13,990 nucleotides of DNA from a virus (lineage: Duplodnaviria > Heunggongvirae > Uroviricota > Caudoviricetes): IMG/VR virus record IMGVR_UViG_2563366982_000004; one strand, 5' to 3'. The number at the start of each line of letters is the position of its first letter. Position 1 is the stretch's first letter. The position numbers and the translations under genes were made by a program. Under the pieces are notes generated by a model that had not been told where the DNA came from, did no database searches, and worked only from the letters and a program-made list of their open reading frames with translations. Below, piece by piece: positions 1 to 13,990 of the stretch.

Positions 1-858
1 ATGTTGAAACTTAAACAACCTGCTTACACATATGCCGATATGCTGACTAGTTGCCGCGAAGGCATAACCGGTAATCCGGGCTTGTTGCTGAAAGTAAATG
101 AAGCAATAACTGATTTGCAAACACTGGCAGCTTCATATAGCGCATCGGCATCAACTGGTGAGCTTTATACAATACAACCATTGAAAAACAAAGATAAGGA
201 AGACCCTATTGTTGTCGGTCGGTTAAAGAAATCTGACTTTGTTAAGCTTTATGGCAATTATGTTGTTGGGAAGAAAAAGCCTGCTCGAGCTATTTATGAT
301 TCCCTGATTACTGCTGCTAATGAAAAATGTCCATATTGTGGTGGAATTGGGCGCCCTCGAAATTTAGATCATTATTTGCCTAAAGCTTACTATCCTCAGT
401 TTTCTATATTGCCAGTTAATCTGGTGCCTGCTTGTCGAGACTGTAATATGGATGGCAAAGGGGAAGTTTTTGCAAGAAATGAAGCAGAACAGATCATACA
501 TCCCTATTTAGACGATAGCCGTTATTATGATGAACAGTGGATATCGGCTAGATACTTGGCTGGCAAAAATGATGAGCCAGGAGTTATTGAGTATTTTGTT
601 TCTCCACCGGCTGATTGGGATGAAGCACACAAACAAAGAGTGGAAAAACATTTTAACGATTTTGATTTGTCTTTAAGATATTCGAAAGAGGCTAGTGCGA
701 GATTAGTTGTACTTTTAGCTCTATATAACTCAGTGCTACCACTCTCCAGAGATAAAAATGCTGCTAAACACCTTATATTTCAAACAATAATTAATAAATC
801 GCCTTTTGTGAATCATTGGGAACGGGTTATGTGTTTGGCTCTTATGTCAGACTTGTAG
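1..858 (+). CDS. HNH-motif nuclease-family protein, function unknown (may be 5'-partial, since the ORF starts at window base 1)
   Basis: Translation carries CPYCGG...NLDHYLP...VNLVPACRDCN, i.e. CxxC / DH / N / CxxC spacing typical of HNH (beta-beta-alpha-Me) nucleases. Flanked by ~110 aa N-terminal and ~130 aa C-terminal regions I do not recognise. Not McrA and not Lit (no HExxH). Coding region looks A+T-richer than the phage core by eye. Confidence 0.55.
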   Translation: MLKLKQPAYTYADMLTSCREGITGNPGLLLKVNEAITDLQTLAASYSASASTGELYTIQPLKNKDKEDPIVVGRLKKSDFVKLYGNYVVGKKKPARAIYDSLITAANEKCPYCGGIGRPRNLDHYLPKAYYPQFSILPVNLVPACRDCNMDGKGEVFARNEAEQIIHPYLDDSRYYDEQWISARYLAGKNDEPGVIEYFVSPPADWDEAHKQRVEKHFNDFDLSLRYSKEASARLVVLLALYNSVLPLSRDKNAAKHLIFQTIINKSPFVNHWERVMCLALMSDL

Positions 859-1126: not shown

Positions 1127-2253
1127 TTACAACGCTACTTTACTCCATCCTTTACCTCGATCATCATGATAACGATCGGTTTGCTGTTGCGTTTTATGAC
1201 CAAGTAGTTTTTGTGTATTTAAACCCTGTTCTTTATACAAACGTTCTGATAAAGACCTTTGTTCATGAAATGTTGCGGGAGAACCTTCACCCCAGTTAAT
1301 TCCTGCTAAATCCCTCGCTTTACTGAAATTCATCGTCAATGTATTGGCTTTAACCTGCGCGCCGCGTTCAGCCTGTGAGGTAGTACGAAAAAAATGTACA
1401 AGGTATGGGCTGACAGCATAGTCACGGCAGCGGGCTACTACATCGCGCAAACTCCATTTAATCGCATTGAGACGCAGGGAAAGCGGGATGGCGATTTTGC
1501 TCCCGGTTTTTTCCTGGATGACATGGAGATGATCATCCCAAATATCGCTAAATTTCATACGCGAGATATCACCTAACCTCTGGCCGGTAACCAGTGCTAA
1601 CAGCATGGCATTCCCCATATAACGATGACTGGCATCAGCGATATCAAAGATTTTTTGCCACTCTTCAAGACTTAACCGTTGTCGGGTAATTTTTCTTCTG
1701 GGCTGTTTGGTGGCTAATGCCGGGTTATAGCCAGGGGGACTTCTCCGTAGTGTTGCGCCTCTTTGAAAACATCAATCAGTACGGAACGAACTACTTGCGC
1801 CATTCTCGGCTGTCCGGCGGCGATATACTCGTCAAGCAACTGGGCTATATCCCTGACATCAACGGCTGAAATTAACTTCAGTCCTGCTCGTTCCCTGAGC
1901 AAGGATACTGGTTTGGCTTTCTGTTTATAGGTGTTGAGCTTTATATCGCCACTTTTCAGTCTGTCTTCCTGGATTGCTTGATAGCGATCTAACCAGGTTG
2001 ACGTTGTGATTGCTTTTCCTTTGCTGGTTGCGATCCTGTCACTGATAGCTAGAATCTGCCGGGTTCTTTGCTCAGCTAGGCGTGTATTGGCCTCAGTGGC
2101 AATAGCAATGGCTTCAGCTTCGTTTGTGCCCAAAGAATGAAACTTCCCGGTCACTGGATGCTTATATCGCCAATAAACTTTATTTACTTTTCTGCTATAG
2201 AGCGGATACAAGTTCGGGACTGAAACATTATTCTTACGTGGTCTGGCTGCCAT
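1127..2253 (-). pseudogene. int: Lambda-family tyrosine integrase, split by a frameshift into an N-terminal ORF (1714..2253) and a C-terminal ORF (1127..1618)
   Basis: N-terminal ORF (MAARPRKNN...GEVPLAITRH) and C-terminal ORF (...LLALVTGQRLGD...FHEQRSLSERLY...LLGHK...RYHDDRG) together match the lambda Int arm-binding and catalytic domains. The two ORFs are in different frames. Reading through the 1619..1713 gap in the C-terminal frame gives a continuous Int-like sequence (...GYNPALATKQPRRKITRQRLSLEEWQKIFDIADASHRYMGNAMLL). The shift maps to a G5 run at 1734..1738. Confidence 0.8.
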
Positions 2254-2384
2254 TACTTAAAATCCTTTGTAGAATAATAGAATCACTTTTCTTAATGACA
2301 GGAGTAACTAATTCTCCAACTAACTCTGCGTCCTCACGTACTCGCCATAGTCGACCTTGTTTCATTGCCGGTGTGTAGTGGCAC
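2234..2384 (-). pseudogene. xis: Excisionase (xis) remnant, 3' end overlapping the int start; 5' end abuts the IS left terminus
   Basis: Minus-strand frame reads ...MKQGRLWRVREDAELVGELVTPVIKKSDSIILQRILSNGSQTT*, resembling the C-terminal two thirds of lambda Xis (W-VRE ... LLKRIRNG). Stop overlaps the int ATG as in lambda. Only ~50 codons remain before the IS end, so an N-terminal loss is likely but not proven. Confidence 0.45.
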
Positions 2385-2456
2385 TGAAGTGGTTTACTGA
2401 ATTTGGCCACCTGAACAGAGGTGATATGCTCACCTCAGAACAACACAGGTGCCATA

Positions 2457-3604
<1,148 letters not shown>

Positions 3605-3636: not shown

Positions 3637-4059
3637 CGCGGTAACTTCATCGCTATCGGCCAGCAGATCCAGCCTTATCTGGAGGACGGAAAATGCTTTC
3701 GCATGGTGCTTAAACCGTGGCGTGAGAAACGCAGTCTTTCCCAGAATGCACTCAGCCATATGTGGTACAGCGAAATCAGTGAATACCTCATCAGCAGGGG
3801 GAAATCGTTCGCTACCGCAGCATGGGTAAAAGATGCTCTCAAACACACATACCTCGGTTATGAAACCAAGGACCTGGTTGATGTCGTAACCGGCGAAATC
3901 ACTACTATCCAGTCGTTACGCCATACCTCCGATCTTGATACCGGAGAGATGTATGTCTTCCTGTGTAAGGTTGAAGCCTGGGCGATGAATATTGGCTGCC
4001 ACCTGACTATTCCGCAGAGCTGCGAGTTCCAGCTGCTGCGCGACAAGCAGGAGGCGTAA
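3637..4059 (+). pseudogene. ninB: NinB-like recombination protein (YbcN-like), 5'-truncated at the IS right end; first in-frame ATG at 3703
   Basis: The frame is open from the IS boundary (RGNFIAIGQQIQPYLEDGKCFRMVLKPWREKRSLSQN...), aligning to lambda NinB from about residue 10 onward (QQI.P...RSLDQN). No start codon or ribosome-binding site remains upstream. Confidence 0.7.
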
Positions 4060-4871: not shown

Positions 4872-5008
4872 TGTTTGAGTCTTATATGGCAGAGCGTCTT
4901 CGCCGCCGCTGGGTGCGCCTGCGCTTATATCGTTTTCCTGGTTCTGTTTTGACCGATTACCGAATACTGAAGAATTACGCCAAAACCCTGACAGGAGCAG
5001 GAGTATGA
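4868..5008 (+). CDS. ylcG: YlcG-like small protein (46 aa); not in the ORF track
   Basis: Hand translation: [49 protein letters not shown] overlaps the rusA stop. Matches the small ORF between rusA and Q in DLP12-type prophages. Confidence 0.5.
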
Positions 5009-5093
5009 AGTCAGAGATAACAATCAACTAATACTGTTTTGTTGATTTTTGCTTGTAATTGGCGTTCTGGTCTGATTTTTGTGGAGTAAGTTG

Positions 5094-5477
5094 ATGCGTG
5101 ATATTCAGATGGTTCTTGAGCGTTGGGGAGCGTGGGCGGCTAATAATCATGAAGATGTGACCTGGTCGTCCGTTGCCGCCGGTTTTAAGGGATTAATTCC
5201 TTCAAAAGTAAAATCTCGCCCGCAATGTTGTGACGATGACGCGATGATCATTTGCGGGTGCATGGCCCGTCTGAAAAAGAACAACAGCGATTTACACGAT
5301 TTATTAGTAGATTATTATGTATGTGGTATGACATTCATGTCACTGGCAAGTAAGCATTGCTGCTCGGATGGTTATATCGGGAAAAGGTTACAGAAGGCTG
5401 AGGGCATAATTGAAGGGATGTTAATGGCATTAGATATCCGGTTAGATATGGATATCGTTGCTAATAATTCTAATTGA
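5094..5477 (+). CDS. quuD: Late-gene antiterminator Q (QuuD-like)
   Basis: [26 protein letters not shown]...[16 protein letters not shown]... matches the DLP12 QuuD-type Q protein. GGAGTAAG lies upstream of the ATG at 5094; the track start at 5079 is probably an upstream in-frame ATG. Confidence 0.8.
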
Positions 5478-5509
5478 TATGCAATTGTTTACTAAAAGTT
5501 ATTAAAAAT

Positions 5510-5528
5510 GGGGCGTGGAAACGCCCCC
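5510..5528 (-). terminator. GC-rich hairpin (GGGGCGT-ggaaa-ACGCCCC) followed on the minus strand by a U-rich tract; candidate intrinsic terminator for the porin transcript
   Basis: 7-bp G/C stem. The downstream minus-strand sequence is ATTTTTAATAA. On the plus strand it is not followed by a T-run. Confidence 0.4.
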
Positions 5529-5614
5529 AAAATAAAGGGTAATATATAACAGAAGGTTTATATAGTAAGAAGCAAGGTAGTGCTTCTAAAGGAAGTGGCT
5601 TGAGGGCTCCACTT

Positions 5615-5656
5615 ATATGTTGCGGAGGCAAAGCCTCCCGCAACATATCTTTTTCG
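5615..5656 (+). terminator. Rho-independent terminator on the plus strand, downstream of Q (tR'-like)
   Basis: ATATGTTGCGGAGGC-aaa-GCCTCCCGCAACATAT, a ~15-bp stem with one bulge, followed by CTTTTTCG. Confidence 0.55.
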
Positions 5657-5665
5657 TAAGTCAGA

Positions 5666-6748
5666 TTAGAACTGATAAACCAGACCTACAGCGACGATGT
5701 CGTCGGTATCAATACCAGCTGTTTTGGTAAACTTACTATCGTCAATTAAGTTGATTTTGTAATCAACAAAAGTGGACATGTTTTTATTAAAGTAGTAAGT
5801 AGCACCGACATCGACATACTTGACTAAGTCTCGGTCACCATGAACACCAAGGTCTTTACCTTTTGACTGAAGGTAAGCAACAGATGGTCGCAGACCGAAG
5901 TCAAACTGATATTGTGCTACTGCTTCAAAGTTTTGTGCTTTGTTTGCAATATGGTTATTACCAAAAACGGTCATATTCTGAGTTTCAGAATATGTGGTAG
6001 CCAGATAGATATTGTTCGCATCATATTTCAGGCCTGCAGCCCATACTTCCGCATTTTTGCCGGAGGCATTGAATTTGCTCTTACCATAGGCGACCTGACC
6101 GTCAGTGCGATCTGATTTAGCATAGGTTGCACCCACGCCGAATCCTTCATACTCATAAGTAGTGGAGAAACCGAAACCATCACCATTGGCTTCAGTTACG
6201 TCAGTGCGGTCATTTTTACCCTGATACTGAGCAGCAAAGTTCAGGCCATCGACCAGACCAAAGAAGTCGTTGTTACGATAAGTTGCAACACCAGTAGTGC
6301 GACCAGTCATGAACACATCTGTTTGGGTCCAGGTATCACCACCGAATTCTGGCAGGACGTCAGTCCACGCACCGATGTCGTATGCTACACCGTAGTTACG
6401 GCCGTAATCGATTGAGCCGTAATCACCAAATTTCAGGCCTGCAAATGCAAGACGGGTTTTGTCTTTGGAAGAACCTTGAGATTCAGCACGGTTGCCTTTG
6501 AATTCATATTCCCACTGACCGAAACCAGTCAGTTGATCGTTGATTTGGGTTTCACCTTTGAAGCCAAGACGGGCATAAGTAGTATCACCATCATCTGCAT
6601 CATTAGAGGAGAAGTAGTGCTTGGCATTAACTTTCCCGTATAGATCCAGCTTGTTACTGTCTTTATTATAAATTTCAGCTGCCTGAGCAGACATCGCCAT
6701 CAGTACTGATGCAGCTACAGCAGAAATTGCCACTGTTAATTTTTTCAT
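5666..6748 (-). CDS. nmpC: OmpC/OmpF-family outer-membrane porin, prophage-encoded (NmpC / Lc type), apparently intact
   Basis: 360 aa with signal peptide [23 protein letters not shown], a full-length porin body and the C-terminal ...VGLVYQF beta-barrel signature. Matches NmpC/Lc. RBS AAGGG lies upstream on the minus strand. Confidence 0.9.
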
Positions 6749-6990
6749 TGTACGCCCTTTTTTTTGAACTATTATTAAAAAATGATGTCACTGCGCGATA
6801 AATATTCATCTAATCAATGCGATTATTTCAAGATGTAAGTTTTAGTTTCTCATTTAATTTGTGAAGTAGATCTCTATTTTTATCTGAACCTTTTCTATCT
6901 AATCCTATTCATGGCTCTTGTTTGAACGAAAATAAATCTATTAGCTAATTTATATTAATGGCACTTATTTATAAGCGCTCTATAATTCTT
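6749..6990 (-). promoter_or_regulatory. A+T-rich upstream region of the porin gene (probable promoter/regulatory region)
   Basis: Long noncoding A+T-rich tract immediately 5' of nmpC on its coding strand. No individual -35/-10 or regulator site can be assigned by eye. Confidence 0.35.
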
Positions 6991-7175
6991 TAACTTAATT
7001 TAAACAAACTAAAAATAACATCGGAAATTATTCATTGGTTATTTGTTGAAGTTTTCTTATGTATTTGTGGTGGTGTTTTGAACACTCGGTGGCATTCTCA
7101 CAAATATCATTTAGTAGTTTACGTACGTAAAAAATTGGTTATGCTGTTAAGAGTGGTTACTTCGTCACACAGCTT

Positions 7176-7208
7176 AAACCCGCCGTCGAGCGGGTTTTTC
7201 CATTTTTT
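7176..7208 (+). terminator. Rho-independent terminator on the plus strand with no ORF upstream (lambda tR'-like: AAACCCGC-cgtcga-GCGGGTTT + TTCCATTTTTTG)
   Basis: 8-bp stem plus T-tract, resembling my recollection of the lambda tR' hairpin (CCGCC...GAGCGGGCTTTTTT). Lies ~130 bp upstream of the holin gene. Confidence 0.55.
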
Positions 7209-7337
7209 GAGTCTCGATATTAGCTGATAACCCAATACCTGAGTTATTCACTGACTCCGAATCTGTTACGTTTCTGCCTTTATTGCGATACGTAGTATCC
7301 CCTTAATTTACACCCGCTTTGTCTGCGAGGTGGGGTT

Positions 7338-7553
7338 ATGAAATCCATGGATAAGTTAACAACGGGTGTCGCCTATGGCACCTCAGCAGGTAGTGCCGGG
7401 TACTGGTTTTTACAGTTGCTCGATAAAGTCACGCCCTCACAGTGGGCGGCAATAGGTGTGCTGGGTAGTCTGGTATTTGGCTTGCTGACGTATCTGACAA
7501 ACCTTTATTTCAAGATTAAAGAAGATAAGCGTAAGGCTGCGAGAGGTGAATAA
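7338..7553 (+). CDS. essD: Class II holin / pinholin (S21-like, EssD-like)
   Basis: 71 aa, [71 protein letters not shown], with two transmembrane segments as in phage 21 S. Stop overlaps the next ATG (TAATG). Confidence 0.85.
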
Positions 7554-7750
7554 TGTCGCCATCATTACGCAAGGCTATTGCTGCTGCTATTGGTGGTGGG
7601 GCTGTTGCCATAGCGTCTGTGCTCATCACTGGTCCGAGTGGTGACGATGGCCTGGAAGGTGTCAGCTACATACCATACAAAGATATTGTTGGTGTATGGA
7701 CTGTATGTCACGGGCATACAGGAAAAGACATCATGCTCGGTAAAACGTAT
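7553..7750 (+). pseudogene. rrrD: 5' fragment of the SAR-endolysin gene (rrrD / R21-like) retained as the head of the J fusion
   Basis: Only ~66 codons of an expected ~165-codon lysozyme are present; the rest of the lysozyme fold is missing. Confidence 0.7.
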
Positions 7751-10700
7751 AAAGGCAGCAGTAAGGGGCATACCCCGCGCGAAGCGAAGGACAACCTGAA
7801 ATCCACGCAGTTACTGAGTGTGATCGATGCCATCAGCGAAGGGCCGATTGAAGGTCCGGTGGATGGGTTAAAAAGCGTGCTACTGAACAGTACGCCGGTG
7901 CTGGACACTGAGGGGAATACCAATATCTCCGGTGTCACGGTGGTGTTCCGGGCAGGTGAGCAGGAGCAGACTCCGCCGGAGGGGTTTGAATCCTCCGGCT
8001 CCGAGACGGTGCTGGGTACGGAAGTGAAATACGACACGCCGATCACCCGCACCATCACGTCGGCAAACATCGACCGTCTGCGTTTTACCTTCGGTGTGCA
8101 GGCACTGGTGGAAACCACTTCAAAGGGTGACCGGAATCCGTCGGAAGTTCGCCTGCTGGTTCAGATACAGCGTAACGGTGGCTGGGTGACGGAAAAAGAC
8201 ATCACCATTAAGGGCAAAACCACCTCGCAGTATCTGGCCTCGGTGGTGGTGGATAACCTGCCTCCGCGCCCGTTCAATATCCGGATGCGCAGGATGACAC
8301 CGGACAGCACCACAGACCAGCTGCAGAACAAAACGCTCTGGTCGTCATACACCGAAATCATCGATATGAAACAGTGCTACCCGAACACGGCACTGGTCGG
8401 TGTGCAGGTGGACTCGGAGCAGTTCGGCAGTCAGCAGGTGAGTCGTAATTATCATCTGCGCGGGCGCATTCTGCAGGTGCCGTCGAACTATAACCCGCAG
8501 ACGCGACAATACAGCGGTATCTGGGACGGAACGTTAAAACCGGCATACAGCAACAACATGGCCTGGTGTCTGTGGGATATGCTGACCCATCCGCGCTACG
8601 GCATGGGGAAACGTCTTGGTGCGGCGGATGTGGACAAATGGGCGCTGTATGTCATCGGCCAGAATTGCGACCAGTCGGTGCCGGATGGTTTTGGTGGCAC
8701 GGAGCCGCGCATCACCTGTAATGCCTGGCTGACCACACAGCGTAAGGCGTGGGATGTTCTCAGTGATTTCTGCTCGGCGATGCGCTGTATGCCGGTATGG
8801 AACGGGCAGACGCTGACGTTCGTGCAGGACCGGCCGTCGGATAAGGTGTGGACCTATAACCGCAGTAATGTGGTGATGCCGGATGATGGCGCGCCGTTCC
8901 GCTACAGTTTCAGCGCCCTGAAGGACCGCCATAATGCCGTTGAGGTGAACTGGATTGACCCGGATAACGGCTGGGAGACGGCGACAGAGCTTGTGGAGGA
9001 CACGCAGGCCATTGCCCGTTACGGTCGTAACGTCACGAAGATGGATGCCTTTGGCTGTACCAGTCGGGGGCAGGCACACCGAGCCGGGCTGTGGCTGATT
9101 AAAACGGAACTGCTGGAAACGCAGACCGTGGATTTCAGCGTGGGCGCAGAAGGGCTTCGCCATGTGCCGGGCGATGTTATTGAAATCTGCGATGATGACT
9201 ATGCGGGTATCAGCATCGGCGGGCGCGTGCTGGCGGTGAACAGCCAGACCCGGACGCTGACGCTCGACCGTGAAATCACTCTGCCATCCTCCGGTACCAC
9301 GCTGATAAGCCTGGTTGACGGAAGCGGCAATCCGGTCAGCGTGGAGGTCCAGTCCGTCACCGACGGCGTGAAGGTAAAAGTGAGCCGGGTTCCTGACGGC
9401 GTTGCCGGATACAGCGTGTGGGGGCTGAAGTTGCCGACGTTGCGCCAGCGCCTGTTCCGCTGCGTGAGTATCCGTGAGAACGATGACGGCACGTATGCCA
9501 TCACTGCCGTGCAGCATGTACCGGAAAAAGAGGCCATCGTGGATAACGGGGCGCACTTTGACGGCGACCAGAGCGGCACGGTGAATGGTGTCACGCCGCC
9601 AGCGGTGCAGCACCTGACTGCCGAAGTCACCGCAGACAGCGGGGAATATCAGGTGCTGGCGCGCTGGGACACGCCGAAGGTGGTGAAGGGGGTGAGCTTT
9701 ATGCTTCGCCTGACCGTGGCAGCGGATGACGGCAGTGAGCGGCTGGTCAGCACGGCCCGGACGACGGAAACCACATACCGCTTCACGCAACTGGCGCTGG
9801 GGCGGTACACGCTGACAGTCCGGGCGGTAAATGCGTGGGGGCAGCAGGGCGATCCGGCGTCGGTATCGTTCCGGATTGCCGCACCGGCAGCACCGTCGAG
9901 GATTGATCTGACGCCGGGCTATTTTCAGATAACCGCCACGCCGCATCTTGCCGTTTATGACCCGACGGTACAGTTTGAATTCTGGTTCTCGGAAAAGCGG
10001 ATTACCGATATCAGGCAGGTTGAAACCACAGCCCGCTATCTTGGCACGGCGCTGTACTGGATAGCTGCCAGTATCAATATTAAGCCGGGCCATGATTATT
10101 ATTTTTATATCCGCAGTGTGAATACTGTTGGCAAATCGGCATTCGTGGAGGCTGTCGGTCAGGCGAGCGATGATGCTTCCGGCTATCTGGATTTTTTCAA
10201 AGGCCAGATAACTGAATCCCATCTCGGCAAGGAGCTGCTGGAAAAAGTCGAGCTGACGGAGGATAACGCCAGCAAACTGGAGGAGTTTTCGAAAGAGTGG
10301 AAAGACGCCAACGATAAATGGAATGCCATGTGGGGCGTCAAAATTGAGCAGACCGAAGACGGCAGGCATTATGTCGCGGGTATTGGCCTCAGCATGGAGG
10401 ATACGGAGGAAGGCAAACTGAGCCAGTTCCTGGTTGCCGCTAACCGTATCGCGTTTATTGACCCGGCAAACGGGAATGAAACGCCGATGTTTGTGGCGCA
10501 GGGCAACCAGATATTCATGAACGAAGTGTTCCTGAAGTATCTGACGGCTCCCACCATTACCAGCGGCGGCAATCCGCCGGTATTTTCCCTGACACCGGAC
10601 GGGCGGTTGACGGCGAAAAATGCCGATATCAGCGGTAACGTGAATGCGAACTCAGGGACGCTCAATAATGTCACGATTAACCAGAACTGTCGGATTCTGG

Positions 10701-11143
10701 GAAAACTGTCTGCCAACCAGATTGAAGGTGATATTGTCAAAACGGTGGGAAAAGCCTTTCCGAGAAATGGCAGTTATGCCAGCGGTACAATAACGGTCAC
10801 TGTGTACGATGACCAGGCTTTTGACCGTCAGATAGTAATCCCACCCGTTCTGTTTCGCGGTGGTAAGCATGAAAACTTCAACAGCAACAACCAACAGTCA
10901 TACTGGTATTCAACCTGTAAGCTGCAGGTACTGAAGAACGGACAGGAAATCTTTCAGCAACCCGCGACGGATGTCAGCAGGGTATTTTCATCCGTCATTG
11001 ATATGCCAGCGGGACACGGCCATGTCACCCTGACTTTCAATGTTTCTTCATATGGTGCAAATAACTGGACGCCAACGACCAGTATCAGCGACCTTCTTGT
11101 TGTCGTGATGAAGAAATCAACAGCCGGTATCAGTATCAGTTGA
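7553..11143 (+). CDS. In-frame chimera: SAR endolysin N-terminus (codons 1..66) fused to lambda J-like host-specificity / tail-tip protein (codons 67..1196)
   Basis: Residues 1..66 ([66 protein letters not shown]) match the signal-anchor-release domain and catalytic start of the phage 21 / RrrD lysozyme. From residue 67 ([32 protein letters not shown]...) it is lambda J from its third codon to the end. Junction is at about nt 7750/7751. GAGGTG RBS is intact upstream of the ATG. Confidence 0.8.
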
Positions 11144-11190: not shown

Positions 11191-11201
11191 GTGGAGTGAA
11201 T

Positions 11202-13262
11202 ATGGCAGTACAGATTTCAGGCGTGCTGAAAGACGGTGCAGGAAAACCAATACAGAACTGTACTATTCAGCTCAAAGCAAAGCGTAACAGCACCACGGTA
11301 CTGGTGAACACGGTGGCCTCTGAAAATCCGGATGAAGCCGGGCGTTACAGCATGGATGTTGAGTATGGCCAGTACAGCGTCACCCTGCTGGTTGAAGGTT
11401 TTCCGCCTTCACATGCCGGGACCATTACCGTCTATGAAGGTTCCAGACCAGGTACGCTGAATGATTTTCTCGGTGCCATGACGGAAGATGATGTCATGCC
11501 GGAGGCATTGCGTCGTTTTGAGGTAATGGTGGAGGATGTGGCACGCAACGCTGAAGCCGCCTCTCAGAGCGCAGCGGCAGCAAAGAAATCAGAAACAGCA
11601 GCGGCATCGTCCAGGAACGCGGCGAAAACATCAGAGACGAATGCAGGTAACAGCGCGAAAGCGGCAGCTTCTTCAAAAACAGCCGCACAAAACGCAGCAA
11701 CAGCGGCAGAACGTTCAGAGACAAATGCCCGTGCGTCAGAAGAAGCCTCCGCAGACAGTGAAGAGGCTTCCCGCCGTAATGCAGAGTCAGCCGCTGAAAA
11801 TGCCGGAGTCGCCACCACAAAAGCGCGGGAGGCTGCAGCAGACGCAACAAAGGCCGGGCAGAAAAAGGATGAGGCTCTGTCGGCAGCGACACGAGCTGAA
11901 AAGGCGGCAGACCGCGCAGAAGCCGCAGCGGAAGTGACTGCAGAGCCCTATGCGAATATAGTGCCGCCGCTGCCTGATGTGTGGATACCGTTTAACGATT
12001 CACTGGATATGATTGCGGGTTTTTCTCCGGGCTATAAAAAAATAGCTATTGGTGACGATGTGGTTCAGGTCGCCAGTGATAAACAGGTTAATTTCAGTCG
12101 CGCATCAACGGCAACATATATCAACAAATCTGGCGAACTGAAAACGGCGGAAATTAATGAGCCGCGATTTGAGTGTGATGGCCTGCTTATTGAGGGACAA
12201 AGAACGAACTACATGCTCAATTCGGAAAGTCCAGCCAGCTGGGGGAAGTCATCAAACATGGATGTGCCCGAAACCGGGACGGATAGTTTTGGTTTTACTT
12301 ATGGAAAGTTTGTCTGCAACGATTCTCTGGTTGGGCAAACTTCGGCTATTAATATGGCATCAATTGCTGCAACAAAGTCAGTTGATGTCTCAGGCGATAA
12401 CAAGTACGTGACAACCTCATGCCGTTTTAAAACAGAACGACAGGTAAGGTTACGTATACGGTTTGATAAGTATGATGGTAGTGCAACAACTTTTCTTGGC
12501 GATGCGTACATTGATACGCAAACGCTTGAAATTAATATGACAGGTGGTGCTGCCGGCAGAATTACGGCACGAGTCAGGAAGGATAAGACCACGGGCTGGA
12601 TTTTTGCAGAGGCAACGATTCAGGCAATTGATGGTGAGTTAAAAATAGGCTCTCAGATACAGTATTCTCCTGAGCAGGGTGGGGCAACAGTATCTGGTGA
12701 CTATATTTATCTTGCCACCCCACAAGTAGAGAATGGGCCGTGTGTATCATCATTTATTATTTCAGGAGGCAGCGCAACGACAAGAGCCAGTGATTTGGTT
12801 AGTATCCCCACCAGAAATAATCTTTATAAGTTACCATTTACTTTTTTACTTGAGATTCATAAAAACTGGGATATTGCACCAAACGCCGCACCCCGCGTGT
12901 GGGATATAGCAGCAGCCAATACCGGGCAATCAGCAATTGCAGCAATCAACAGAGGTAGTGGTAAGTTATATATGAGTCTGTCAAACCCTTCAGGCTCGTA
13001 TGTTAATAGCGCAGCGACAGATGTATTTGCAGAGAAAACCACATTTGGATGTATTGCAAAAGCTGATGGTCACTTTCATGTGGTGACAAATGGTAAAGCG
13101 GTTAATGAAGTTTATTGTGAATATAATGGCGTGACCGCTGATAAAAATATCCGATTTGGAGGGCAGACGAATACTGGAGAACGACATCTGTTTGGCCATA
13201 TTCGCAATTTCCGCATATGGCATAAAGAATTAAATGACAGGCAATTAAAAGAGGTCGTATGA
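11202..13262 (+). CDS. stf: Side tail fiber protein (Stf-like): lambda-type N-terminal tail-attachment domain, Ala/Ser-rich repeat linker, and a distinct C-terminal putative receptor-binding domain
   Basis: N-terminus MAVQISGVLKDGAGKPIQNCTIQLKAKRNSTTVLVNTVASENPDEAGRYSMDVEYGQYSV... matches the lambda Stf N-terminus. Probable start is the ATG at 11202 (GGAG 5 nt upstream); the track start at 11196 is GTG. The C-terminal ~440 aa are unlike lambda Stf and end ...RFGGQTNTGERHLFGHIRNFRIWHKELNDRQLKEVV. Confidence 0.8.
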   Translation: MAVQISGVLKDGAGKPIQNCTIQLKAKRNSTTVLVNTVASENPDEAGRYSMDVEYGQYSVTLLVEGFPPSHAGTITVYEGSRPGTLNDFLGAMTEDDVMPEALRRFEVMVEDVARNAEAASQSAAAAKKSETAAASSRNAAKTSETNAGNSAKAAASSKTAAQNAATAAERSETNARASEEASADSEEASRRNAESAAENAGVATTKAREAAADATKAGQKKDEALSAATRAEKAADRAEAAAEVTAEPYANIVPPLPDVWIPFNDSLDMIAGFSPGYKKIAIGDDVVQVASDKQVNFSRASTATYINKSGELKTAEINEPRFECDGLLIEGQRTNYMLNSESPASWGKSSNMDVPETGTDSFGFTYGKFVCNDSLVGQTSAINMASIAATKSVDVSGDNKYVTTSCRFKTERQVRLRIRFDKYDGSATTFLGDAYIDTQTLEINMTGGAAGRITARVRKDKTTGWIFAEATIQAIDGELKIGSQIQYSPEQGGATVSGDYIYLATPQVENGPCVSSFIISGGSATTRASDLVSIPTRNNLYKLPFTFLLEIHKNWDIAPNAAPRVWDIAAANTGQSAIAAINRGSGKLYMSLSNPSGSYVNSAATDVFAEKTTFGCIAKADGHFHVVTNGKAVNEVYCEYNGVTADKNIRFGGQTNTGERHLFGHIRNFRIWHKELNDRQLKEVV
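11565..11940 (+). repeat. Low-complexity Ala/Ser/Glu/Lys-rich repeat region inside stf (degenerate SETNA / AAxxA-type units)
   Basis: Translation ...AAKKSETAAASSRNAAKTSETNAGNSAKAAASSKTAAQNAATAAERSETNARASEEA.... The GC-rich repetitive DNA also generates the spurious overlapping ORFs seen on both strands here. Confidence 0.5.
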
Positions 13263-13537
13263 AAGATTTAACTTTGAAGTTTCATGACAAACTGCAGTTT
13301 AAGGCCTTCCTGTCATCTCTTGGCTGGGCGGAAGATGAAGACCTCCAGAATAAACTGTTAGTTGATGAAATTGGTTTCACCTACACAGAAACAGGGGTAA
13401 CAGAAGAGGGAGAACCTGTCTGTATCCGGAATGATGGTTATTTTGTCAACATTCGCATTCTTGATGACTTGTTTGATGTTTCTGTATTCTCTGATTATGT
13501 CGTGGAGCTGGAAACACCGCTTCGGGAATGGAGCTGA
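13259..13537 (+). CDS. Hypothetical acidic 92-aa protein, translationally coupled to stf (ATGA overlap); function unknown
   Basis: ATG overlaps the stf stop. No similarity I can recognise to lambda Tfa or T4 gp38-type fibre chaperones. A+T-rich. Confidence 0.45.
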   Translation: MKDLTLKFHDKLQFKAFLSSLGWAEDEDLQNKLLVDEIGFTYTETGVTEEGEPVCIRNDGYFVNIRILDDLFDVSVFSDYVVELETPLREWS

Positions 13538-13549
13538 AAGGAGGAAATA

Positions 13550-13990
13550 ATGGATATAAGCCCCTTACTTCATGCACTTTGTGCTGTGGCTGCGCAGATA
13601 CTGGTTGGTCTTTTTACCGGAAACTGGGCTTACGGAGCGATAGCCGGTTGTACGTTCTTCATTGCGCGTGAACATACCCAGGCAGAATATCGCTGGATTG
13701 AAATGTTCGGGCATGGCAAGCGAATGAATATGCCGTGGTGGGGCGGTTTTGATCCGCGTGCTTGGGATGTGGCAAGCCTGATGGATTTTGCTGTGCCGGT
13801 GGTGGCGTGTCTGCTGGTCTGGCTGTTGGTTAATCGTGGGCGAAAAAAGGTGAGCTGTATATGCAACGGAGGAAGAAACCCCGTTGCTGGAAGCCAGGAA
13901 AAAGTATCGGGTGTTGCTGTCCTCGGATGTTGTGCTAATTGGGTGATAACAGATCCTGTGTATGGGAGTTTCCCTTTTTGCGTGCGTTGA
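13550..13990 (+). CDS. Hypothetical small membrane protein (two or three predicted hydrophobic helices); 3' boundary uncertain, stop coincides with the window end
   Basis: Strong RBS AAAGGAGG 7 nt upstream of the ATG. Hydrophobic segments LLHALCAVAAQILVGLFTGNWAYGAIAGCTFFIA and VASLMDFAVPVVACLLVWLLV. The last ~45 codons are Cys/Gly-rich and look less protein-like. Confidence 0.4.
   Translation: MDISPLLHALCAVAAQILVGLFTGNWAYGAIAGCTFFIAREHTQAEYRWIEMFGHGKRMNMPWWGGFDPRAWDVASLMDFAVPVVACLLVWLLVNRGRKKVSCICNGGRNPVAGSQEKVSGVAVLGCCANWVITDPVYGSFPFCVR

What the first reader, a model, noticed from the sequence alone, without database searches (positions are those of the whole stretch)
11202..13262. Mosaic side tail fibre: lambda-type N-terminus, repeat linker, then an A+T-richer foreign C-terminal domain with a lectin-like terminus
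The composition changes visibly around nt ~11950, from a GC-rich Ala-rich repeat region to A+T-rich coding sequence. The C-terminal ~440 residues do not resemble lambda Stf and end in a motif reminiscent of concanavalin/LamG-type lectin folds (...GERHLFGHIRNFRIWHKELNDRQL...). That suggests a horizontally acquired, sugar-binding receptor-recognition module grafted on via the repeat linker, which is a likely recombination hotspot.
Basis: partly seen in the sequence, partly recalled or inferred. Interest (0 to 1): 0.45.

Follow-up and report, generated by a model that had tools for sequence, protein, structure and literature searches.

The report
Mosaic lambdoid side tail fibre gene
This is an intact side tail-fibre gene stranded in a decayed lambda-like prophage of E. 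coli: it joins a lambda-type attachment end to a widely traded pair of lectin-like domains, and it is real but ordinary and already in the databases.

Summary
ORF 11202-13262 (686 aa) has a lambda Stf N-terminus (PF08400, E 5e-67) and an Ala-rich stretch (37% Ala). At residue ~250 it switches to a 434-residue region with no similarity to lambda Stf. GC falls from 0.554 to 0.436 (GC3 0.48 to 0.37). The best change point is nt 11991, and it exceeds all 200 codon shuffles.

The same module occurs in lambda-like, T5-like, rV5-like, Drexlerviridae, Dhillonvirus and Seuratvirus phages, and behind P2-type N-termini. It is always followed by a conserved ~92-aa ORF. Its two domains also reassort independently.

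However, the protein is 98.5% identical to the Stf of phage mEp460_4F5 and present in 576 complete E. coli genomes. Here it sits in a prophage that lacks head and tail genes. Sugar binding is inferred, not shown. Low novelty.

The parts
11202..13262 (+). Side (lateral) tail fibre gene, 686 aa, one continuous ORF (in-frame GTG at 11196)
   Evidence: PHROG 1419 'tail protein', 1113 bits. 100% identical DNA in many complete E. coli genomes. 98.5% identical protein in phage mEp460_4F5.
11202..11594 (+). N-terminal tail-attachment domain, lambda Stf type (aa 1-131)
   Evidence: PF08400, E 4.8e-67, 224.5 bits. Residues 1-94 match the lambda Stf chain in PDB 9e7m/9mgh, E 6.7e-49, about 87% identical. 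73% identity to lambda orf-401 over residues 1-158.
11532..11957 (+). Ala-rich low-complexity shaft (aa 111-252), GC 0.587; overlaps the end of the Pfam N-terminal match
   Evidence: 37% Ala, 13% Glu, 11% Ser. 53% identity to the Ala/Ser-rich part of lambda orf-401. No tandem repeat, only degenerate short direct repeats. A trimeric alpha-helical shaft is inferred by analogy with the LtfA coiled coil (PMC10713586).
11958..12230 (+). Conserved entry segment of the distal module (aa 253-343; PLPDVWIPFNDSLDM...RASTATYINKSG...EPRFE.DGLLIEGQRTN)
   Evidence: 65-100% identity to all homologues in most blocks, whatever their N-terminus. Many invariant columns. Alignments to fibres with other N-termini start at aa 246-254. 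AF2 pLDDT below 50 as a monomer.
12231..12671 (+). Variable central beta-sandwich domain (aa 344-490), core of the 'GTA head spike fibre' domain
12672..12818 (+). Conserved junction between the two domains (aa 491-539; TPQVE.G..SSFI...TRASD.V.IP)
   Evidence: Invariant columns in A1. Identity switches across this segment in P0095, P0090 and Tritos. Megablast matches in other E. coli genomes end at about query nt 808.
12819..13259 (+). Terminal LamG_3 / ConA-like domain (aa 540-686), GC 0.414, GC3 0.32
13259..13537 (+). 92-aa acidic ORF whose start overlaps the fibre stop codon (ATGA); conserved partner of the distal module; function unknown
   Evidence: phrog_1361, E 3e-42. No Pfam or NCBIfam match. 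A homologue (32-100% identity) directly follows the fibre gene in all 10 phage contexts examined. Only 54 clusters among 1.84 billion representatives. No similarity to lambda Tfa.
13550..13990 (+). Small membrane-protein ORF (phrog_1443, normally ~97 aa), extended to 146 aa by loss of its stop codon
   Evidence: phrog_1443, E 7e-58 over residues 1-96. TGA in Lambda_ev245 is CGA here at about nt 13841. PGAP marks it as a pseudogene.
7553..11143 (+). Context: tail tip protein J fused in frame to the N-terminus of a phage lysozyme, marking a deletion of all head and most tail genes
   Evidence: Six J-specific Pfam domains, plus PF00959 Phage_lysozyme at residues 34-84. Residues 67-1195 are 89% identical to lambda J 3-1131. 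The holin gene ends at 7553.

Best explanation
The gene encodes the side (lateral) tail fibre of a lambda-like siphovirus, built from exchangeable parts.

Shown:
- Residues 1-~130 are the lambda Stf-type domain that docks the fibre on the tail tip.
- Residues ~111-252 are an Ala-rich low-complexity segment.
- Residues ~253-686 are a distal head unrelated to lambda Stf.
- The head has a conserved entry segment, a variable beta-sandwich homologous to the RcGTA head spike fibre, a conserved junction, and a terminal LamG_3-like beta-sandwich.
- The head, together with a conserved 92-aa ORF, is shared by at least six unrelated coliphage lineages behind different N-terminal anchors.
- Its two domains have recombined independently of each other.

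Inferred:
- The Ala-rich segment forms a trimeric alpha-helical shaft.
- The two ConA-like domains bind surface polysaccharide (O-antigen or capsule) reversibly. This would give the phage its first, host-range-determining contact before J engages its outer-membrane receptor.
- The lower G+C of the head reflects traffic with lower-G+C virulent coliphages.
- The 92-aa protein assists assembly of the head or forms part of it.

In this genome the gene is a stranded remnant. The prophage has lost its head genes and most tail genes, so the fibre cannot be mounted on a virion of its own. At most it can serve as recombination material for incoming phages.
For: Domain assignments:
- PF08400, E 5e-67, and the lambda Stf chain of PDB 9e7m, E 7e-49.
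- NF048003 at 55.7 bits against a cut-off of 36. Rcc01080 at E 1.4e-9, or 2.9e-18 with a profile.
- Laminin_G_3 at E 1.4e-5, with 8 of 10 homologues matching.

Fold:
- AF2 gives pLDDT ~90 for aa 341-514.

No similarity to lambda orf-401, orf-314 or Tfa beyond residue 250.

Spread of the module:
- 228 phage records.
- It sits in the lateral-fibre position after the collar protein in T5-like EC104 and SP15, after J in lambda-like and Seuratvirus phages, and in rV5-like fibres.
- It also follows PF12571 and PF03406 N-termini.

Recombination:
- P0095 is 100% identical up to aa ~490, then 41-53%. P0090 is 100% in the terminal domain but 61-67% in the central one.
- At 80% allele clustering there are 11 central alleles, 15 terminal alleles, 22 combinations, and 5 allele quartets with all four combinations.

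Composition: step as. The module has GC 0.37-0.41 in T5-like, Seuratvirus and Warwickvirus phages.

Function in relatives:
- The tagged Rcc01080 protein binds cells in a capsule-dependent way (PMC10218006).
- Lateral fibres of T5-like and small siphoviruses are taken to bind O-antigen, and their loci vary downstream of a conserved N-terminus (PMC8594841, PMC4728585).

Defective context: holin, then a lysozyme'-'J fusion, then stf.
Against: - No binding data exist for this fibre or any close relative. Glycan binding rests on fold class and on one distant homologue (about 25% identity).
- The Laminin_G_3 score is below Pfam's gathering threshold for this sequence and its closest relatives.
- Both AF2 models of the terminal domain are low confidence.
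- The conserved entry segment (aa 253-343) was not modelled (pLDDT below 50).
- LamG and ConA-like folds also bind proteins, and some are enzymes.
- Several carrier phages (the BASEL isolates) were isolated on K-12, which has no O-antigen. The fibre is therefore not needed there, and its ligand is unknown.
- The direction of transfer cannot be read from G+C alone. Part of the G+C step comes from Ala codons.
Confidence: 0.75

Rival explanations
1. The distal domains are enzymes (a glycanase or lyase of the ConA-like 'lectin/glucanase' superfamily) that cut O-antigen or capsule, rather than binding it passively.
Against: Across ten homologues the variable central domain has no invariant acidic residue. 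Its only invariant columns are S157 and W217. The invariant residues of the terminal domain are the structural LamG end motif. The best matches are non-catalytic lectin-like domains (pentraxin, BoNT HcN, CBM40, LG). Hypervariability with conserved flanks is the pattern of a specificity domain, not of an active site.
Confidence: 0.08
2. The distal head recognises a protein receptor, not a glycan.
For: LG/LNS domains (neurexin, laminin, Gas6) and BoNT Hc domains, the top fold matches, often bind proteins. Lambda Stf itself binds OmpC (general knowledge). Several carriers were isolated on O-antigen-less K-12.
Against: The only tested homologue binds capsule (PMC10218006). One homologue (P0228, Lambda_ev245 type) also gives a weak sub-threshold match to CBM_4_9 (E 0.0019, 19 bits). 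In T5-like phages the module occupies the lateral-fibre position that is linked to O-antigen specificity (PMC4728585, PMC8594841). The very high allelic diversity (11 x 15 alleles in a limited sample) resembles O-antigen diversity.
Confidence: 0.12
3. The G+C step is only a by-product of amino-acid composition (Ala codons in the shaft) and says nothing about a foreign origin.
For: GC1 and GC2 are 0.66 and 0.65 in the Ala-rich segment, against 0.49 and 0.45 in the distal part.
Against: GC3, which is largely free of that effect, also falls, from 0.48 to 0.37, and to 0.32 in the last domain. The neighbouring J gene has GC3 0.66. The same N/C contrast is seen in Tritos, Lambda_ev245 and mEp460. 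The module has GC 0.37-0.41 in low-G+C phages. Mosaicism is shown independently by sequence identity.
Confidence: 0.1
4. The intact fibre gene is kept in the decayed prophage because it benefits the host or serves as a reservoir, for example by supplying a receptor-binding module to superinfecting phages, rather than being a recent neutral remnant.
For: The ORF is intact and at least 99% identical in 570 E. coli records, although the prophage lacks head and tail genes. It sits next to the sitABCD moron, which is under positive selection in gut E. coli according to PMC6969025. Natural phages carry the same flanks with other alleles.
Against: Near-identity is expected from clonal descent in ExPEC lineages. 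The neighbouring small ORF has already lost its stop codon, and the integrase is split. No expression or fitness data were available.
Confidence: 0.1

Closest known systems
Side tail fibre of Escherichia phages mEp460_4F5, PhiR57_1, D2 and 3W (sequenced lambda-like phages)
   Same: Essentially the same protein. Whole-protein identity to mEp460_4F5 is 98.5%. The distal 437 aa are 99-99.8% identical to mEp460_4F5 and PhiR57_1. The gene order J, stf, 92-aa ORF, small membrane ORF is the same.
   Different: Those are complete, plaque-forming or induced phages. Here the gene lies in a prophage remnant without head or tail-shaft genes.
Bacteriophage lambda Stf (orf-401/orf-314 in lambda PaPa) with its chaperone Tfa
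   Same: N-terminal attachment domain (73% identity over 158 aa; PF08400; PDB 9e7m). Ala/Ser-rich segment. Position downstream of J.
   Different: The distal 434 residues have no similarity to lambda Stf. There is no Tfa homologue; a 92-aa ORF of unknown function follows instead. There is no lom gene between J and stf.
RcGTA head spike fibre Rcc01080 (Rhodobacter capsulatus gene transfer agent)
   Same: Homologous over residues 297-543 (E 1.4e-9; profile E 2.9e-18; NCBIfam NF048003), including the flanking motifs RA..ATY...PR(F/Y) and Q.E.G...SS.I.T....TRA.D. It binds capsular polysaccharide (PMC10218006).
   Different: It is anchored on the capsid by a short N-terminal peptide, as a single subunit per pentamer (PMC7296036). 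It is 325 aa, so too short to contain a domain corresponding to the ~150-aa terminal domain here. Only residues 2-10 are experimentally resolved.
Lateral tail fibres of T5-like phages (EC104, SP15, AKFV33, T5_ev219) and of Drexlerviridae, Dhillonvirus and Seuratvirus phages (swan01, KarlBarth, VogelGryff)
   Same: Same distal module at 36-60% identity, followed by the homologous small ORF. It sits in the lateral-fibre locus that is variable downstream of a conserved N-terminus and is thought to read O-antigen (PMC8594841).
   Different: Different N-terminal anchors. In many of these phages a second fibre gene follows the small ORF. The best-studied branched fibre, DT57C LtfA/LtfB, ends instead in an autocleaving pfam13884 chaperone and is not this module (PMC4728585).
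Pseudomonas phage Pa193 / E217 baseplate-tail fibre protein gp46 (PDB 9b45, 8env)
   Different: Only 14-16% sequence identity. It is a myovirus baseplate component. No sequence-level relation was detected.

Membership tests
Lambda-type side tail fibre (PF08400 'prophage tail fibre N-terminal') | N-terminal domain scores above the Pfam gathering threshold | tested here: met
   224.5 bits against 26.6, residues 1-131. E 6.7e-49 to the lambda Stf chain of PDB 9e7m.
Lambda-type side tail fibre (PF08400 'prophage tail fibre N-terminal') | Gene lies just downstream of the tail tip gene J | tested here: met
   J ends at 11143 and the fibre starts at 11202.
Lambda Stf proper (Stf + Tfa system) | gp37-like distal part and a downstream Tfa assembly chaperone | tested here: not met
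   No BLASTP hit of residues 250-686 to orf-401 or orf-314, and none of the 92-aa ORF to Tfa.
NCBIfam NF048003 'phage head spike fiber domain' (RcGTA Rcc01080-like) | Domain score above NCBI's curated cut-off | tested here: met
   55.7 bits against 36, residues 329-529, profile 1-181 of 182. Direct hit to Rcc01080 at E 1.4e-9.
NCBIfam NF048003 'phage head spike fiber domain' (RcGTA Rcc01080-like) | Binds capsular polysaccharide | not testable with these tools
   Shown only for Rcc01080 itself (PMC10218006).
Pfam PF13385 Laminin_G_3 (ConA-like lectin/glucanase superfamily) | Score at or above the gathering threshold (27.6 bits) | tested here: not met
   The window scores 25.0-25.7 bits (E 1.4e-5 to 2.3e-5). 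The close relatives P0087, P0071 and P0090 score 24.9-25.4 bits. 8 of 10 diverse homologues match at E < 0.01, best 1.8e-7. Significant by E-value, but below the curated cut-off.
Pfam PF13385 Laminin_G_3 (ConA-like lectin/glucanase superfamily) | Jelly-roll beta-sandwich of LG/ConA topology | tested here: inconclusive
Pfam PF13385 Laminin_G_3 (ConA-like lectin/glucanase superfamily) | Sugar or Ca2+ binding site | not tested
   No ligand-site analysis was possible on low-confidence models.
PHROG 1419 (phage 'tail protein') | Full-length match to the family profile | tested here: met
   1113 bits. Residues 194-686 match profile positions 299-793 of 793.

The most novel reading that the evidence does not exclude
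The distal head plus its 92-aa partner may be a self-contained, portable glycan-reading cassette. It is shared by at least six unrelated coliphage lineages and is related to the gene transfer agent head spike. Its two lectin-like domains reassort independently and could give combinatorial O-antigen or capsule specificity. Copies stranded in decayed prophages such as this one would then act as a reservoir of alleles for incoming phages.
Probability: 0.3. Interest if true: 0.4.

Novelty: already known. Interest (0 to 1): 0.18.

Why it matters
As a discovery it matters little. Mosaic tail fibres are textbook phage biology, and this allele is already in sequenced phages and in hundreds of E. coli genomes.

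Three by-products have practical use for predicting and engineering host range:
- A domain map of a very common but uncharacterised coliphage fibre head: a conserved entry segment, a GTA-spike-like sandwich, a conserved junction and a LamG-like sandwich.
- Evidence that the two domains swap independently at conserved junctions.
- The strict linkage to a 92-aa ORF of unknown function.

The analysis also shows that NCBI's pipeline splits this intact ORF into a pseudogene plus a 'head spike fiber' CDS, which is misleading.

Tried and rejected
- Tandem repeat search of the linker found nothing. Only weak, degenerate direct repeats appear, so 'repeat region' is better called low-complexity.
- I considered equating the fibre with the branched LtfA/LtfB fibre of DT57C. 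I rejected this because those proteins end in an autocleaving pfam13884 chaperone domain, which is not this module (PMC4728585).
- The third protein search, with a profile of divergent members, returned almost only identical Lambda_ev245-type sequences and added little diversity. This limited the depth of the AF2 alignments.
- AF2 of the whole distal head left aa 250-340 and the terminal domain at low confidence. Re-running the terminal 163 aa alone was worse (pLDDT 50.5).
- A profile search of PDB sequences found no LG-domain structure by sequence.
- The 92-aa ORF gave no Pfam or NCBIfam family. Its only non-phage hit is a 13-Ig-domain protein, P0391, with weak repeated similarity (E 4.7e-4). 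I treat this as an unreliable hint of an Ig-like fold.
- Literature searches for a described LamG or ConA-type lambdoid side tail fibre found nothing specific.
Full report
**What is there.** The window is a piece of an E. coli chromosome. The fibre gene is 100% identical to many complete, mostly human and ExPEC-type genomes. It carries the right end of a decayed lambda-like prophage next to sitABCD.

It follows the tail-tip gene J (7553-11143) after a 58-nt gap. Two small ORFs follow it, at 13259-13537 and 13550-13990.

**Check of the observation.** Composition does change.
- aa 1-252 have GC 0.554 (GC3 0.48).
- aa 253-686 have GC 0.436 (GC3 0.369).
- The last domain has GC 0.414 (GC3 0.319).
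- The maximum-likelihood change point is nt 11991. Its log-likelihood ratio is 15.2, against a maximum of 8.3 in 200 codon shuffles.

Part of the step is caused by alanine codons: GC1/GC2 are 0.66/0.65 in the 37%-Ala segment. The drop in GC3 shows it is not only that.

The 'repeat' label is weak. Tandem Repeats Finder finds nothing, and only a few degenerate 12-28 nt direct repeats exist.

Against lambda itself:
- Residues 1-158 are 73% identical to orf-401.
- Residues 134-240 match its Ala/Ser-rich part.
- Residues 250-686 match nothing in orf-401, orf-314 or Tfa.

**Anatomy.**
- N-terminus. Residues 1-131 are the lambda Stf attachment domain (PF08400, E 4.8e-67). Residues 1-94 match the Stf chain in the solved lambda tail-tip structures 9e7m/9mgh (E 6.7e-49).
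- Shaft. Residues ~111-252 are Ala/Glu/Ser-rich. I infer a trimeric helical shaft, by analogy with the coiled coil seen for LtfA of DT57C (PMC10713586).
- Distal head. It starts at residues 246-254. That is where alignments begin to fibres with entirely different N-termini, namely P0087 with a P2-type PF12571 domain and the rV5-like SYGMH1 fibre.

An alignment of ten homologues at 36-72% identity and block-wise identities divide the head into four parts:
- a conserved entry segment (aa 253-343);
- a hypervariable central domain (aa 344-490);
- a conserved junction (aa 491-539, TPQVE.G..SSFI...TRASD.V.IP);
- a variable terminal domain (aa 540-686).

**Central domain.** NCBIfam NF048003 ('phage head spike fiber domain') matches aa 329-529 at 55.7 bits against a cut-off of 36. 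The RcGTA head spike fibre Rcc01080 is hit directly (E 1.4e-9) and with the family profile (E 2.9e-18).

Only residues 2-10 of Rcc01080 are resolved experimentally (PMC7296036), so no solved structure covers the homologous part. An AF2 model built on 33 sequences gives pLDDT ~90 for aa 341-514 as a beta-sandwich.

**Terminal domain.** Pfam Laminin_G_3 matches aa 560-681 at E 1.4e-5 to 2.3e-5. The score is 25.0-25.7 bits, just under the 27.6-bit gathering score. Close relatives score the same.

Eight of ten diverse homologues match, the best at E 1.8e-7.

**Distribution and mosaicism.** The distal 437 aa hit 228 phage records:

| Phage group | Examples | Identity |
|---|---|---|
| Lambda-like | mEp460_4F5, PhiR57_1 | 99-99.8% |
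| Lambda-like | Tritos | 70% |
| Lambda-like | Lambda_ev245 | 44% |
| Seuratvirus | VogelGryff | 60% |
| Seuratvirus | SA126VB | 36% |
| Drexlerviridae | swan01 | 54% |
| Dhillonvirus | KarlBarth | 50% |
| T5-like, in the lateral-fibre position after the collar protein | EC104, SP15, AKFV33 | 37-42% |
| rV5-like | SYGMH1 | ~40% |

Rhodobacter phage RcapMu gives a partial 29% hit. In E. coli prophages the same head also follows PF12571 and PF03406 (P2-type) N-termini.

Within the head the two domains assort independently.
- P0095 is 100% identical to the window up to aa ~490, then 41-53%.
- P0090 is 100% identical in the terminal domain but 61-67% in the central one.
- Lambda_ev245 shares the N-terminal half at 90-100% but only 24-31% of the central domain.

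I clustered 346 proteins at 80% identity. This gives 11 central alleles, 15 terminal alleles and 22 observed combinations. Five allele quartets show all four combinations. The window's central allele is paired with seven different terminal alleles.

Megablast against E. coli genomes shows the same breakpoints. The conserved segments inside the head are equally used.

**The partner ORF.** In all ten phage contexts examined, a ~85-110-aa acidic ORF homologous to 13259-13537 (32-100% identity) directly follows the fibre gene, usually overlapping its stop codon.
- It is phrog_1361, of unknown function.
- It has no Pfam or NCBIfam family.
- It has only 54 clusters among 1.84 billion representatives.
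- It is unrelated to lambda Tfa.

I infer a role in assembly of the head, or as part of it. This is untested.

**Function.** Nothing has been measured for this fibre type. The argument for reversible polysaccharide binding has four parts:
- Both domains belong, confidently or probably, to the ConA-like lectin superfamily.
- The only tested homologue, Rcc01080, binds cells in a capsule-dependent manner (PMC10218006).
- The module sits in the lateral-fibre loci that are held to read O-antigen in T5-like and small siphoviruses (PMC8594841; PMC4728585).
- The variable domains have no invariant acidic residues. That argues against a conserved glycosidase site and for a diversifying binding surface.

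Protein binding or enzymatic activity cannot be excluded.

**Context in this genome.** The prophage cannot make particles.
- The 'J' ORF starts with ~66 residues of a phage lysozyme (PF00959, residues 34-84), fused in frame to lambda-J residue 3 (89% identity), directly after the holin gene. A deletion therefore removed everything from the lysis genes to J.
- The integrase is split, an IS3-family element interrupts the nin region, and the small membrane ORF after the fibre has lost its stop codon.
- Natural lambda-like phages from infant guts carry the same fibre, small-ORF and sitABCD arrangement. sitABCD was reported on 70% of such phages (PMC6969025).

**Verdict.** The feature is a normal, already sequenced and annotated mosaic tail fibre (PHROG 1419; 'side tail fiber protein' in phage records).

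It is not novel as a gene or as a principle. The modest added value is the domain map, the link to the GTA head spike fibre, the independent reassortment of the two domains, and the conserved 92-aa partner.

Noticed in passing
window 7553-11143 (+): The ORF annotated as gpJ is a fusion. Its first ~66 residues are the N-terminus of a phage lysozyme (PF00959 at residues 34-84). Residues 67-1195 are lambda J 3-1131 at 89% identity. It starts at the stop codon of the holin gene (7338-7553). A single deletion therefore removed the rest of the lysis cassette, the terminase genes, the head genes and most tail genes.
   Followed up: partly
window 13550-13990 (+), codon at ~13841-13843: The small three-helix membrane ORF (phrog_1443, ~97 aa in phages) has lost its stop codon. 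TGA in Lambda_ev245 is CGA here. The ORF reads on to 146 aa, towards the 3' end of sitD on the other strand. PGAP marks it as a pseudogene.
   Followed up: yes
window 11196-13262; locus L001 12007-14067: NCBI's pipeline splits this uninterrupted ORF into an N-terminal 'pseudogene' (missing its C-terminus) and an overlapping 574-aa CDS named 'phage head spike fiber domain-containing protein'. The DNA is 100% identical to the window. The split and the 'head' name are annotation artefacts.
   Followed up: yes
window 13259-13537 (+): The 92-aa partner ORF has weak, repeated similarity (E 4.7e-4; 25-33% identity over ~45 residues, several repeats) to the immunoglobulin domains of a 13-Ig-domain protein (P0391). 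This may hint at an Ig-like fold, or may be chance.
   Followed up: partly
window 1127-3604: A lambda-type integrase is split into two ORFs on the minus strand: 1714-2253 (arm-binding domain) and 1127-1618 (catalytic domain). An IS3-family element follows (2421-2759 HTH_Tnp_1; 2786-3604 rve) and abuts a truncated NinB-like ORF (3703-4059). This left part differs from strain EcPF40, which has an inverse autotransporter and a hydrolase gene there.
   Followed up: partly
window 5666-6748 (-): A complete porin gene (Porin_1, E 2e-151), annotated ompC in RefSeq, sits between the Q antiterminator gene and the holin gene of the prophage, on the opposite strand.
   Followed up: no
locus L005 (Lambda_ev245) 4945-7269; window end ~13935-13990: A natural lambda-like phage carries sitDCB directly after the same fibre, small-ORF and membrane-ORF cassette, but with a fibre head only 44% identical. 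The flanks are conserved while the head allele differs. sitABCD as a phage moron is published (PMC6969025).
   Followed up: partly
phage records MG065653.1 (Campylobacter phage C14), OR848352.1 / OR847733.1 (Listeria phage LM 4-14-1, 4-11-1): Records labelled as Campylobacter and Listeria phages carry this coliphage-type fibre module at 40-49% identity, like rV5- or T5-type coliphages. They are unannotated and some are very short, so they may be mislabelled or contaminated.
   Followed up: no
PDB 9occ_C: A solved 'tail fiber protein gp17' (457 aa) matches the central-domain profile at E 9.1e-5 (profile positions 157-291 against chain residues 281-409), including the PQ.E...S.I.T....TR motif. 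The phage was not identified. It may be the only solved structure of this domain type.
   Followed up: no
window 1-858 (+): A 285-aa ORF at the left edge has no Pfam match and low G+C (0.35-0.40). It was not examined further.
   Followed up: no
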